Shown: positions 1 to 3,000 of the stretch, one piece after another
Layout: every line of letters begins with the position of its first letter
Numbering within the stretch: the first letter of the stretch is position 1
UHGV virus genome: UHGV-0119008
Source of the DNA: a virus
DNA length: 12,477 bases
Reading direction: 5' to 3' (one strand)
Made by a program: the position numbers

Positions 1-3000
1 GGGCTTGTAATGGGTTAAGTGATAACAGATGTCTGGAAATATAGGGGCAAATCCAACTATCATGTATGCACAAAAATAAATTGAAAAGTACACCATGCAG
101 ATAGTTAGCAATTCTTTAGTATCTTTTCTGCTCACACCAACCCCCTTTAGCGTTGTTTAGAATGGCAATCATCATATATCCAAGACATGGCATTTGGTAC
201 ATAGCTTGGGTCGGGATTTCAAGTCCGCTCCCAGTTGATGGGGCCGTTACAGTACGCGCATATCCGCTTTATGTGAAACAGGAAGATTTTTCTGATATCA
301 CTGCCACAGCAAAACACCAATTTCGTGACCAGTACGCGCGCGAGGGGTATCAGTTGCAAAATTTTTTGCAACTGCGTCCGACCAGTACGCACACGATGGC
401 GGGGGATACCATAAAACTGTTCTCTACATGAGACAGAGTGGTGGTGATGTGTTGATTATCGGCGTATATGCGCACAGGACGCGCTATGACGATGTTTTAT
501 GCGGGTACACCAATCACATGTATCTGGTGTGATAAATCGCGTTACATGACCTCTCATGTTGTGCTGGTGGTTATCACGACTTTCTGAATCTGGCCTTTGC
601 CTGATATTTTGCGACAAGTACGCGCGCGTAGCATCGACAGCATACACATTGGATATTCATTTTGTGACCAATGCGATAAGTAGCGGGATAAGAATTGATA
701 AAATCAACAGGCCGATGATCCACTTTTGATTTTCACTGGCCTTATCTCTATTTTCATCAATCTTATCAATAATTCGACGCTCCAATCCGTGCATATCACC
801 GCGAATGGCAATCATCTCATTGCGAACATCAGGGAAGTGGTTGGCTTGATGTTCAATGTGTGGCGTTCTGCCTTTCATATCTGATCCTCACCTATCGTCA
901 CTACCTGCTGGTGTATAAAGGTATTGGCCCAAGCAACTTTCCAATGGGCACTCATGTTTATACGCTGACCTTACAATCAATCACTGCTTTTAGCTTTTCA
1001 GCATTGCTTCCCTGACGCTTCCACGCGCTGTAAATATCTTTATCCCACGCTTTACCAGCTTTTGTTTGATAGCCTGCTTCATTGATCCGTTCAGCTATCA
1101 CACGCCCATTATCAAATCCCTGTTGGATGGTATCGGCAATGATCTTTATAACTGCCGTTTCGTTATATGGTTTTGGTGGGATGTTCGGCTTTCCGGCAAT
1201 AAGCGACGCAGCGGCTTTTTCCATGCGCTCCACCAGCCCAAGCATTCGTGAATCAATAGACTTTTCCGGCTGCCCCAGCTTCATGCGAATCGCATCAACA
1301 AGCCAGGAGGTTTTATCTCCTCCAGAAGCGAGAACAGACCGATTAAACTCATCCTGCAATTCAGATGGGATGCGGAACGCGACCAGATTAGATTTGCTCA
1401 TTGCAAAGACCATATCAGTGAGTAATATCCATACAGTATACCACTGTATAACACTGTTATACGCTCAAATATCAGCCAGAAAATAACGGACCAATCACAA
1501 ATCTATCGCTGTGTTGTTGGTTCAGAGCTGGGCTGTGTTGGTTCAAAATGAGTTGATGTTGGTTCAATATTTCAGAAAAAACACAATAAAAACAACAATC
1601 TTTACAAATTGAACCAACTGAACCAACTGAACCAACACCTTTTTGCTTATCTATATAATCTGAGAGGCAGAAATGATAAGGGACAGGAAAGCTGAAGAGC
1701 TGGAGTCAAAAGGGCTATACCGGAGAGCTGCCGCACGATGGATGGAAGTCATGCTGTTATGCACCGAGGACGATGATCGGGAATGGATAAAGCGCCGCCG
1801 TGAAACGTGTCTGGAGAACGTGAAGCGCCCGCCCGTGAAGGTTGAGGAATTTGGCGACCTGCATAAAGCTGTTACCGAAACGCAACACCGCATGGGGATA
1901 GCGCAACCGAACGGTAACGCCTTCCGGTTAAATGGCGGCAAGAGGCAAAGGTAGACCACCAGAGGGAAATCATCCTCTGGCTGGCGGTTTCTGGTATTTC
2001 GGGACAAGTACGCGCGCGCGTAGCACCCAATCGGTGAGGAAATAGCGGCGACCTGAATGGTCAAAATCACAACGCAGCTATCCCCGTAAGCAGCGCTTAA
2101 CGGAATAGCAGTAACCTGAATCCAGTGGGGAGGGGGTAGTCAAATCTCTACAGCCCTGACTATCCGGGACTGCCCGCCCCATCGTTTTTTTATACCCGCG
2201 AAAAATGAAATTTAATCCGGGCGTGTTTCATTCTTCCAGAGGGTATGACGTATGACACCACGCGAAATAGCCTTATTGACCATCGCCAAACTTGAGCACG
2301 GAGGCCACCAGCTTACACAGGCAGATCAACGGGAGATAGAACGATCAGTTAATGCCGATATAGCCCGGCGCGACAGGTTCCGCGAAATGATGCGAGCACC
2401 TGCCTACCAGTGGAAGAAGCCAGCGCCGCGCAGGTAGATATGGGATTATTCCACATGTAACTTATGCGTATTAAGCAAATTTCCTTTATTCACCTTTACA
2501 GAATTGTGAGTACGTCAGTATCGTTATCCTTCCGATTCGCATTTATTCAGGATTTGCATGTACCAGCTAAAGATAACCATCCGAGACAGCAAACCACCTA
2601 TATGGCGGCGTGTGCTGGTTCCAGAGCAAATCCCCTTTAGTAAACTTCATGCCGTGATCCAGTTAGCTTTTGGCTGGAATGACGAACACCTGTATATGTT
2701 CGAGAAAGGGCGTAAAGGTGATCCAGGTAGCGAGTATCGCGTATGGGGTGAGGATGAAAGCATGGGTAACGCGGCAATCACGCCACTATGGGCGGCGCTC
2801 CAGAATGAGGGTGACAAGCTGGTTTACACGTATGACTTTGGCGACTGGTGGGATTGCGTCATTGTGCTGGAGAAGCAAACACACGATACGAGTAATCAGC
2901 CCATTAGCTGCCTGCGTGGGAAAGGCACCACCCCGGCGGAAAACTCAGGCGGCTTGCATGGTTACAATGAATTGCTATTACAGGCCAGAGAGTCTGATAA

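What the first reader, a model, noticed from the sequence alone, without database searches (positions are those of the whole stretch)
249..431. 24-bp palindrome flanked by CCAGTACGC direct repeats in an apparently non-coding stretch
The near-perfect palindrome cagttgcaaaattttttgcaactg (351-374) sits between CCAGTACGCGCGCG (329-342) and CCAGTACGC (382-390). The overlapping 92-aa ORF (153-431) has no SD and looks spurious. A hairpin-capable palindrome bracketed by direct repeats resembles nick or recombination sites such as oriT-like or rolling-circle origin hairpins, or a bidirectional terminator.
Basis: seen in the sequence. Interest (0 to 1): 0.4.

Follow-up and report, generated by a model that had tools for sequence, protein, structure and literature searches.

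The report
Unstable hairpin between terminase-derived repeats
The palindrome and its flanking repeats are real and lie in effectively non-coding prophage-remnant DNA of E. coli; they behave as a deletion- and inversion-prone hairpin rather than a transfer origin or terminator, and the repeats unexpectedly copy the most conserved codons of a phage small-terminase gene.

Summary
Positions 351-374 form a perfect 11+2+11 palindrome, the longest in the window (about 2% of randomisations match it). GACCAGTACGC repeats lie at 327 and 380.

The feature sits in a ~510-bp block (133-640) found at 95-100% identity in ~545 of 5426 complete E. coli chromosomes. It is absent from true plasmids and from sequenced phages. 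The block lies just upstream of a leftward sieA-like gene, here cut by IS2, in a P22-like prophage remnant in the thrW island.

ORF 153-431 is an orphan. It shows no third-position bias, is frame-broken in many ways, and has no remote homologs.

The repeats belong to a same-strand family (327, 380, 613, 2003, partial 249). Their core, TTTCGNGACMAGTACGCG, equals the codons F-R-D-Q/K-Y-A of Sf6/HK620-type small terminase.

Relatives show three instabilities: a precise 53-bp deletion between the two repeats, inversion of the hairpin loop (TT to AA), and homopolymer slippage.

No relaxase or Rep gene is nearby and no T-run follows the stem, so oriT, rolling-circle origin and terminator readings are not supported.

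My best reading (0.45) is a non-functional recombination and instability relic. The main rival (0.22) is a terminase/HTH recognition (pac-like) array. The motif also recurs, often in pairs, in non-coding DNA of unrelated bacteria; that is unexplained.

The parts
1..55 (.). Terminal sequence of an IS2 copy. The same end, inverted, closes the window at 12426-12477.
   Evidence: Positions 1-140 hit about 11,000 places in E. coli but never extend past base 55/56. The reverse complement of 1-55 lies next to an annotated IS2 transposase in relatives.
56..135 (-). 5' remnant of a sieA-like superinfection-exclusion gene (GTG start at 135-133), truncated by the IS2.
   Evidence: An intact 204-aa gene is annotated in relatives. 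It has a weak Pfam SIEA hit and matches PHROG 7745, SieA-like. It follows P22-type gp20/gp16 genes.
133..640 (.). Conserved mosaic block that contains the finding. Flanking sequence differs on both sides between lineages.
   Evidence: The block is 95-100% identical in 545 of 5426 genomes, on chromosomes only. Its boundaries are seen in the alignment. There was no blastn match in 50,697 phage records.
136..222 (-). Nearly invariant stretch upstream of the sieA-like start. It contains a Shine-Dalgarno-like AAGGGGG (reverse complement of about 141-148) and, by inference, the promoter.
   Evidence: Apart from a 2-nt CT indel after 142 and one substitution at 152, no position in 133-222 varies among 12 distinct copies. 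The sequence was read. P22 PsieA lies within 85 bp of the start codon (PMC10883804).
162..431 (+). ORF of 89 aa (92 aa from the TTG at 153). An orphan, read as spurious or decayed.
   Evidence: There are no Pfam or PHROG hits. Substitutions by codon position are 7/8/6. Homologs are only frame-variant E. coli/Salmonella copies of 74-210 aa. There were no remote homologs among 1.8 billion representatives.
245..264 (+). Partial fifth copy of the repeat (ACAGTACGCGCA).
   Evidence: family D4 reference copy; weak.
320..346 (+). Repeat copy A: ATTTCGTGACCAGTACGCGCGCGAGGGG.
   Evidence: Eighteen of 18 nt are identical to a P22-like terS allele, TTTCGTGACCAGTACGCG.
327..379 (.). 53-bp unit (one repeat copy plus the palindrome) that is present or absent between relatives.
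   Evidence: L021, L024 and L025 lack exactly this unit and keep one hybrid repeat. About 500 of 545 E. coli genomes carry it.
351..374 (.). 24-bp perfect palindrome with an A4T6 centre.
   Evidence: establish the palindrome. Loop variants TT, AA and AG are seen, and the 9-10-bp arm cores are intact in 28 of 31 distinct copies.
380..399 (+). Repeat copy D: GACCAGTACGCACACGATGG, a degenerate copy.
   Evidence: The positions GC[R]C[R]CG are polymorphic.
563..570 (+). Chi sequence GCTGGTGG inside the block.
606..636 (+). Repeat copy B, ATTTTGCGACAAGTACGCGCGCGTAGCATCGA, at the right mosaic boundary of the block.
   Evidence: Lineages diverge 10-12 nt after it.
1996..2026 (+). Repeat copy C, ATTTCGGGACAAGTACGCGCGCGCGTAGCAC, downstream of the PerC gene.

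Best explanation
The feature is a non-coding hairpin-plus-direct-repeat unit. It lies in the accessory region beside the sieA-like gene of a defective P22-like prophage in the E. coli thrW island.

The two CCAGTACGC repeats are two of about five same-strand copies of a short sequence. That sequence is homologous to the codons F-R-D-(Q/K)-Y-A(-R) of Sf6/HK620-type small-terminase genes. I read these copies as patches of phage-phage homology left by recombination, which still support further recombination; one of them (copy B) sits at a module joint.

The palindrome between copies A and D can form a hairpin or cruciform. Together they make a structurally unstable unit. Slippage or recombination between A and D removes exactly 53 bp. 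The hairpin loop flips. The adjacent homopolymer runs slip.

Shown here: the anatomy, the lack of coding signal, the homology to terS, and the natural deletion and inversion variants. Inferred: that the unit has no dedicated function, and that the repeats arose as recombination scars.
For: - No coding signal: codon-position counts are 7/8/6. Frame-shifting indels are common. Homologs are of variable length and limited to E. coli and Salmonella, with no remote relatives. dN/dS is about 0.6-1.1 on very few sites.
- Context: the unit lies between minus-strand genes next to sieA and P22-type ejection genes. It is chromosomal only, and absent from true plasmids and from phage isolates.
- terS homology: HK620 gene 3 reads gcaaagcatgaggatTTTCGCGACAAGTACGCG (AKHEDFRDKYA). 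A second allele reads TTTCGTGACCAGTACGCG, identical to copy A over 18 nt. The family is Pfam PF20901.
- Copy B lies 10-12 nt from the point where alternative right-hand modules diverge.
- Precise 53-bp deletion variants with hybrid repeats occur in at least two flank backgrounds.
- The TT and AA loop variants are exact reverse complements of each other.
- G-run and A-run length changes occur.
- Three of 31 distinct copies carry uncompensated arm mutations.
- There is no Rfam, promoter or terminator match.
Against: - The block is retained at 95-100% identity in a tenth of E. coli genomes, amid variable flanks.
- The repeat core is perfectly kept in copies A, B and C, and in diverged islands whose flanks are unrelated.
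- All substitutions in the palindrome among the first 12 copies fall in the loop or the outermost pair.
- The same motif recurs, often as pairs 42-67 nt apart, in non-coding DNA of unrelated phyla. A pure scar model explains this poorly.
- Divergence is too low for a strong test of constraint.
Confidence: 0.45

Rival explanations
1. The repeat copies are a cis-acting array recognised by the helix-turn-helix domain of an Sf6-type small terminase or a related HTH protein. It would act as a pac-like packaging signal or a decoy. The A-tract palindrome between copies A and D would act as a bend or hairpin, comparable to the R sites and IHF bend of lambda cosB.
For: - The core equals nt 166-187 of HK620 terS, at the end of the DNA-binding-domain coding part.
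- From memory, Leavitt et al. 2013 (Virology 440:117) place the Sf6 pac site inside that part of the gene; the paper could not be read.
- Both the Q (CAG) and K (AAG) variants of the core exist among terS alleles and among block copies.
- The block lies about 14 kb downstream of an HK620-type terS on one provirus contig (L018 and L201).
- In strain ABW_A19 the block sits in an island with integrase, a P4-like primase and P22-type ejection genes but no terminase or capsid genes.
- Multiple same-strand copies are typical of terminase recognition sites.
- Some cross-phylum paired motifs lie next to an integrase, a Rep_trans gene or a RelE gene.
Against: - The unit holding copy D and the palindrome is dispensable.
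- Copy D is degenerate.
- Genuine terS genes show a single copy within ±400 nt.
- Synonymous-site conservation at the motif is only mildly below the gene average: 0.37 against 0.55, with lower windows elsewhere.
- Identity to enterobacterial terS stops after 18 nt.
- Many cross-phylum copies lie among ordinary chromosomal genes such as hsp20 and aldehyde dehydrogenase.
- No Sf6-type terminase is encoded in the window.
Confidence: 0.22
2. The palindrome is an operator for a dimeric regulator. The regulator would control the sieA-like promoter about 150-200 bp away, or read-through from the upstream leftward genes.
For: - The symmetry is perfect, 11+2+11.
- Variation concentrates in the central 2 nt and the outermost pair.
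- The site lies upstream of a prophage-expressed gene. HTH genes are nearby: AlpA-like in some lineages, and a 151-aa protein with a weak HTH hit.
Against: - The palindrome is absent from lineages that have the same flanking genes.
- Three of 31 copies carry arm mutations.
- No second operator copy is present, no cognate regulator is conserved across flank types, and no promoter-like site was detected nearby.
Confidence: 0.12
3. The plus-strand ORF is, or recently was, a real accessory gene of about 105 aa. The window copy would be a pseudogene disrupted by the 53-bp unit.
For: - Variants that lack the unit have an intact 105-aa ORF in three lineages.
- Two different 1-nt changes (an extra G after 400, an extra A in the loop) restore a long frame in other lineages.
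- PGAP annotates it in some genomes.
Against: - The ORF has no Shine-Dalgarno sequence.
- Its start lies 27 nt from, or overlaps, the divergent gene start.
- There is no third-position excess and dN/dS is near 1.
- It is an orphan among 5.8 billion clusters and 1.8 billion representatives.
- The frame-restoring changes fall in homopolymer runs, which slip readily.
Confidence: 0.1
4. The unit folds as an RNA element on the minus strand, the strand on which both neighbouring genes are transcribed. It would affect processing, stability or read-through of a transcript that runs into the sieA-like gene.
For: - The minus-strand RNA fold extends the hairpin by pairing CGUGUGCG with CGCGCGCG through G-U pairs.
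- Minus-strand energy is -30.9 kcal/mol with z = -3.6. The plus strand gives z = -1.7.
- The A/G polymorphisms in copy D keep those pairs.
Against: - No Rfam family matches.
- There is no covariation beyond transitions.
- The unit is dispensable.
- Transcription across the region is unknown.
Confidence: 0.08
5. The unit is an origin-of-transfer nick site, a rolling-circle double-strand origin or a bidirectional intrinsic terminator.
For: There is only the general shape: a hairpin-capable palindrome with nearby repeats.
Against: - No relaxase, mobilisation or Rep genes are present.
- Copies are never on true plasmids.
- The stem is A+T-rich with no T-run, and the terminator scan found none.
Confidence: 0.03

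Closest known systems
Slipped-strand deletion between short direct repeats that flank a palindrome (classical E. coli mutagenesis, e.g. lacI and plasmid palindrome studies; cited from general knowledge)
   Same: 17-20-nt direct repeats bracket a hairpin-forming palindrome. Natural variants have lost exactly one repeat plus the intervening DNA. Loop-inversion variants exist.
   Different: The events are inferred from population variants and were not measured. The repeats are not random: they are copies of a terminase-derived motif that is also found elsewhere in the island.
Short conserved boundary (linker) sequences at module joints in mosaic lambdoid and P22-like phage genomes, and recombination at short homologies by phage Rad52-like recombinases (general knowledge)
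   Same: Copy B sits 10-12 nt from the point where alternative right-hand modules diverge. The same 22-nt core occurs with unrelated flanks in other enterobacterial islands.
   Different: The sequence derives from inside a terminase gene, not from an intergenic linker. Copies A and D are not at a joint. The left boundary of the block has no copy.
Terminase recognition sites: the Sf6 pac site inside terS, the P22 pac site inside gene 3, and lambda cosB R sites with an IHF bend
   Same: The sequence is homologous to the DNA-binding-domain end of Sf6/HK620 terS. There are several same-strand copies over a few hundred bp, with an A-tract element between two of them.
   Different: There is no evidence of terminase binding or packaging initiation. 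One copy and the palindrome are dispensable. No terminase gene is present in the window.
P22 immI / sieA accessory region
   Same: The position is the same: after gene 16 and sieA, at the end of the late operon.
   Different: There is no similarity to mnt/arc/ant or their operators. The block was not found in any sequenced phage isolate.

Membership tests
Conjugative oriT (nic site) | Relaxase or mobilisation genes in cis, on a plasmid, ICE or other mobilisable replicon | tested here: not met
   None appears in the Pfam scans or the RefSeq annotation. All 579 places are chromosomal. The only 'plasmid' hit is a 4.9-Mb record.
Conjugative oriT (nic site) | A known nick consensus next to the inverted repeat | not tested
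   No oriT library was available. The flanks are the terS-like motif.
Rolling-circle double-strand origin | A Rep (HUH) initiator encoded beside the hairpin | tested here: not met
   No Rep family was found in the window or in annotated relatives.
Intrinsic (rho-independent) terminator | G+C-rich stem followed by a T-run | tested here: not met
   The stem is GTTGCAAAA/TTTTGCAAC. It is followed by CGTCCG on the plus strand and ATACCC on the minus strand. The scan found 0 terminators.
Protein-coding gene (ORF 153/162-431) | Reading frame kept among relatives, third-position excess of substitutions, homologs beyond near-identical DNA | tested here: not met
   Frames vary, giving products of 74-210 aa. 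Codon-position counts are 7/8/6. No remote homologs were found.
Palindrome/direct-repeat deletion hotspot | Natural alleles that differ by precise loss of one repeat plus the intervening sequence | tested here: met
   L021, L024 and L025 lack 53 bp and retain hybrid repeats GCGCACG, GCGCGCG and GCACGCG.
Palindrome/direct-repeat deletion hotspot | Evidence that the palindrome folds in vivo (loop inversion) | tested here: met
   The TT and AA centre variants are exact reverse complements. That this reflects template switching is an inference.
Sf6-type terminase recognition (pac) site | Sequence identity with the DNA-binding-domain coding part of terS | tested here: met
   There are 18 identical nt to P22-like terS alleles. 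The family is PF20901.
Sf6-type terminase recognition (pac) site | TerS binding and packaging initiation at the site | not testable with these tools
   This needs binding, transduction or virion-end mapping experiments.
Sf6-type terminase recognition (pac) site | Nucleotide-level constraint at the motif within terS beyond protein constraint | tested here: inconclusive
   Synonymous entropy is 0.37 at codons 55-62 against a gene mean of 0.55, but two other windows are lower.
CRISPR mini-array | Identical repeats of 23-47 nt at a constant period, with cas genes or a leader | tested here: not met
   Copies A and D are 85% identical over 20 nt. No cas family appeared in the Pfam scans.
Integron attC | Core sites RYYYAAC and GTTRRRY in an imperfect palindrome next to an integron integrase | tested here: not met
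   GTTGCAA/TTGCAAC do not fit the core consensus (read). No integron integrase is present.
Known RNA families (Rfam 15) | A covariance-model match | tested here: not met
   No match at E <= 1 overlaps 1-2600 except a spurious miRNA hit at 1510-1639.
Mosaic boundary sequence | A short conserved sequence at the point where alternative modules diverge | tested here: met
   This holds for copy B only. It does not hold for copies A and D.

The most novel reading that the evidence does not exclude
The 22-30-nt sequence (GAG)TTTCGNGACCAGTACGCGCGCG(CGAGG) may be a portable DNA recognition element of the Sf6-type small-terminase HTH domain. It would be embedded in terS itself and copied, singly or as closely spaced pairs, into non-coding DNA of prophage remnants, satellite-like islands and chromosomes across phyla. 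There it would act as a packaging signal, a terminase decoy or a regulatory site. The window's palindrome-plus-repeats would be one such array.
Probability: 0.2. Interest if true: 0.75.

Novelty: new member of a known kind. Interest (0 to 1): 0.4.

Why it matters
As a hairpin-and-repeat instability hotspot in a decaying prophage, the feature is ordinary. It mainly warns against reading such shapes as origins or terminators.

The part worth following up is the repeat itself. It is a short terminase-derived sequence kept perfectly in several non-coding places in E. coli islands. It also recurs in pairs in unrelated bacteria.

If the repeat is a terminase or HTH recognition element, three things would follow. 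It would give a sequence handle on pac-site recognition by Sf6-type terminases, which has been hard to show in vitro. It would offer a way to predict DNA that such phages preferentially transduce. It would also give a marker for satellite-like elements that lack their own terminase.

Tried and rejected
- Rfam scan of the whole window at E <= 1: nothing relevant.
- Promoter and terminator scan: nothing in 136-656.
- blastn of the block against 50,697 phage records: no match.
- Pfam and PHROG scans of all small ORFs on both strands of the block: nothing.
- Exhaustive HMMER search of the 105-aa ORF: only frame variants of the same locus.
- The palindrome as a dispersed element: four other viral contigs carry GTTGCAAAANNTTTTGCAAC, but in unrelated coding contexts.
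- Isolated motifs as parts of known RNAs: no Rfam family overlaps them in 18 loci. In L067 and L124 the motif lies about 135 nt upstream of isrK/C4 RNAs but is not part of them.
- Isolated motifs as chance hits: true for two Nocardia loci, where the opposite strand encodes methylmalonyl-CoA mutase RVLVAKPGLDGHD. It is not true for the majority, which also carry the GAG prefix.
- Isolated motifs always in mobile elements: rejected, because the neighbours are mixed.
- CRISPR-like geometry: the periods range from 42 to 67 nt and the repeats are imperfect.
- A terminase gene in the window: none.
- Literature: the Leavitt 2013 paper is not held. No paper contains the motif string. No description was found of satellites that carry P22-type ejection genes.
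Full report
**1. Observation**

The sequence is as described.
- CAGTTGCAAAA-TT-TTTTGCAACTG at 351-374 is a perfect inverted repeat with 11-nt arms and a 2-nt spacer.
- It is the longest perfect inverted repeat in the window. Only 2% of 300 Markov-1 randomisations reach 11-nt arms.
- The flanking repeat is GACCAGTACGC at 327 and 380, extending to 20 nt at 85% identity.
- Related copies lie at 613 and 2003, with a partial one at 245-264.
- The pattern gives four matches against 0.47 expected by chance.

**2. Where it lies**

- Bases 1-55 are the end of an IS2. The same end, inverted, closes the window at 12426-12477.
- The IS2 cuts a leftward gene whose GTG start is at 135. 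Intact relatives encode a 204-aa SieA-like protein. That gene follows P22-type ejection genes gp20 and gp16.
- The next gene to the right, 657-878, is also leftward. So 136-656 is intergenic between two minus-strand genes, and no gene is annotated there in the closest relatives.
- Alignment of lineages shows a sharply bounded conserved block, about 133-640, with different sequence on both sides.
- The block occurs in 545 of 5426 complete E. coli genomes at 95-100% identity, always on chromosomes.
- It is absent from 50,697 phage records by blastn. It is also absent from plasmids, apart from one mislabelled 4.9-Mb replicon.
- In strain ABW_A19 the block lies in an island at tRNA-Thr. The gene order is: integrase, HTH, antirepressor, Ash, TOPRIM/DUF927 primase, then P22-type DUF2824, ejection genes and a sieA-like gene, then the block, then an AlpA-like gene, PerC and a pRiA4b-ORF3 gene, then the chromosome.
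- On one provirus contig the block lies about 14 kb downstream of an HK620-type terS. That distance matches the end of a P22-like late operon.
- The island therefore looks like a P22-like prophage remnant, in places fused to a P4-like element.

**3. Is the ORF real?**

Evidence against:
- ORF 162-431 (TTG at 153) has no Pfam or PHROG match.
- Among 12 distinct copies, substitutions fall 7/8/6 on codon positions 1/2/3. The downstream extension shows only 3 of 13 at third positions.
- Frame-shifting indels are frequent.
- The 41 database homologs are all E. coli or Salmonella and range from 74 to 210 aa, each covering a different part.
- An exhaustive HMMER search of 1.8 billion representatives found only those same frame variants.
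- dN/dS between intact forms is 0.6-1.1, but on only five or six differences.
- The start has no Shine-Dalgarno sequence. It lies 27 nt from the divergent sieA-like start in the window lineage, and overlaps that start in others.

Evidence for:
- Forms without the 53-bp unit carry an intact 105-aa ORF.
- Single-base changes in homopolymer runs restore a long frame in some lineages.

I read the ORF as spurious or decayed (0.1 that it is or was a gene).

**4. What the repeats are**

- A 16-mer scan of viral contigs showed that GACMAGTACGCGCGCG is mostly the codons D-Q/K-Y-A-R-A within F-R-D-Q-Y-A-R-A-R-E.
- The proteins carrying it are Pfam PF20901, the Sf6-type small terminase.
- HK620 gene 3 reads ...gcaaagcatgaggatTTTCGCGACAAGTACGCGaagg (AKHEDFRDKYAKA).
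- A second allele among enterobacterial P22-like proviruses reads gctgaacatcaggagTTTCGTGACCAGTACGCG.
- Copy A, gcaaaacaccaaTTTCGTGACCAGTACGCGcgcgag, is identical to that allele over 18 nt and similar for 12 nt upstream.
- Copies B and C carry the AAG form.
- The copies are therefore terS-derived or terS-homologous. They are not full gene fragments: identity ends after about 18-22 nt.
- The same core, with unrelated flanks, occurs in other enterobacterial islands:
  - L067, L111 and L124, about 135 nt upstream of isrK and C4 RNAs;
  - L122;
  - L129, where it forms the N-terminus of a homolog of window ORF 2252-2437;
  - a Leclercia genome.
- Copy B lies 10-12 nt from the point where alternative right-hand modules diverge.

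**5. How the unit behaves**

- Contigs L021, L024 and L025 lack exactly 53 bp: one repeat copy plus the palindrome. They keep a single hybrid repeat, in both right-flank backgrounds.
- About 500 of the 545 E. coli genomes carry the unit. The deleted form is therefore the minority state and probably arose more than once.
- The loop variant CAAAAAATTTTG is the exact reverse complement of the window's CAAAATTTTTTG. This is as expected from hairpin-mediated inversion. AG and one-base-shorter loops also occur.
- The 9-10-bp arm cores are intact in 28 of 31 distinct copies. Three copies carry uncompensated arm changes.
- Folding gives a 10-bp stem in DNA and RNA. Only the minus-strand RNA extends it through G-U pairs: z = -3.6 on the minus strand against -1.7 on the plus strand.

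**6. What it is not**

- No relaxase, mobilisation or Rep family is present.
- No T-run follows the stem, and the scan found no terminator.
- No Rfam family matches.
- The sequence does not fit integron core sites.
- The repeats are too short and too imperfect for a CRISPR mini-array.

**7. The unexplained part**

- A scan of one genome per species for TTTCGNGACMAGTACGCGCGCG gave 29 hits.
  - Three lie in terS ORFs.
  - Two are chance hits: the opposite strand encodes Nocardia methylmalonyl-CoA mutase.
  - Most of the rest sit in short or stop-ridden frames and appear intergenic by a crude ORF call. They have unrelated flanks beyond about 25-45 nt.
  - About 15 also carry the upstream GAG/GAA codon typical of terS.
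- Several loci have a second copy 62-180 nt away. L157 has a perfect 30-nt repeat 62 nt apart.
These include several distinct soil and peat families as well as the E. coli block.
- The neighbouring genes are mixed: an integrase, a Rep_trans gene and a RelE-like gene in some loci, and hsp20, aldehyde dehydrogenase and other housekeeping genes in others.
- Orientation relative to neighbouring genes is not consistent.
- No paper in the library contains the sequence.
- Within 62 enterobacterial terS alleles, the motif codons TTT, GAC and TAC are invariant. However, windowed synonymous entropy (0.37 against a mean of 0.55) is not uniquely low.

**8. Verdict**

The anatomy is real and moderately non-random.

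The best-supported account (0.45) is an unstable hairpin between two copies of a recombination-prone, terminase-derived repeat in a decaying prophage region, with no dedicated function.

The main rival (0.22) is that the repeat family is a recognition array for an Sf6-type terminase or a related HTH domain. This rests partly on my recollection that the Sf6 pac site lies in the DNA-binding-domain coding part of terS, which I could not check.

Noticed in passing
window 1-55 and 12426-12477: The window is bounded by the same IS2 end in inverted orientation. The left copy truncates the sieA-like gene after about 27 codons.
   Followed up: partly
window 1508-1638: There are three direct copies of TGTTGGTTCA at 21-nt spacing, facing three inverted copies (TGAACCAAC) at 9-10-nt spacing. 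They lie just upstream of the PerC gene (1673-1954). The array looks iteron-like or operator-like, and it probably explains the spurious miRNA hit.
   Followed up: partly
window 2020-2195: A non-coding stretch runs between repeat copy C and ORF 2252-2437. It ends in a G+C-rich stem (GGGGAGGGGG...CCCGCCCC) followed by T7, which looks like a small-RNA or leader terminator. No Rfam family matches, and the fold z-score is only -1.1.
   Followed up: partly
window 563-570: A Chi sequence, GCTGGTGG, lies on the plus strand inside the conserved block.
   Followed up: no
L172 (E. coli ABW_A19, NZ_CP067307.1 941779-961000) and L003: The thrW island combines an integrase, AntA/B, Ash and a P4-like TOPRIM/DUF927 primase with P22-type DUF2824, gp7-like, gp20 and gp16 ejection genes and a sieA-like gene. 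It has no capsid or terminase genes. It is either a fusion or deletion product of two tandem elements, or a satellite-like element that carries its own ejection proteins.
   Followed up: partly
window 133-175 versus L002, L003, L004: Three unrelated leftward genes (204, 129 and 145 aa) follow the same upstream region. Two of them share the first ~10 codons (MIAILNNAKG). This suggests cassette-like replacement of the exclusion gene behind a fixed promoter and start.
   Followed up: partly
L143-L170 (genome contigs) and L257-L375 (metagenome contigs): The motif (GAG)TTTCGNGACCAGTACGCGCGCG occurs in non-coding DNA of many unrelated bacteria, often as direct pairs 42-67 nt apart, with locus-specific 3' extensions shared by the two copies. 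One soil family lies beside an hsp20 gene, with a 12-bp inverted repeat enclosing the second copy.
   Followed up: partly
L067 10890-11238 and L124 6974-7364: In two E. coli-type islands the motif lies about 135 nt upstream of isrK and C4 antisense-RNA genes, in what looks like the leader of that immunity operon. L124 also carries an int-alpA RNA.
   Followed up: partly
L155 about 1844-1890: In one proteobacterial genome bin the motif is directly followed by its own inverted copy (ACCAGTACGCGCGCG-cgtg-CGCGCGCGTACTGGT), forming a long G+C hairpin.
   Followed up: no
window 7406-11224: The right half of the window encodes an HTH_36 protein and a Phage_cap_E major capsid protein among unannotated small ORFs, like a capsid-encoding satellite or another prophage remnant. 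It encodes no Sf6-type terminase.
   Followed up: partly
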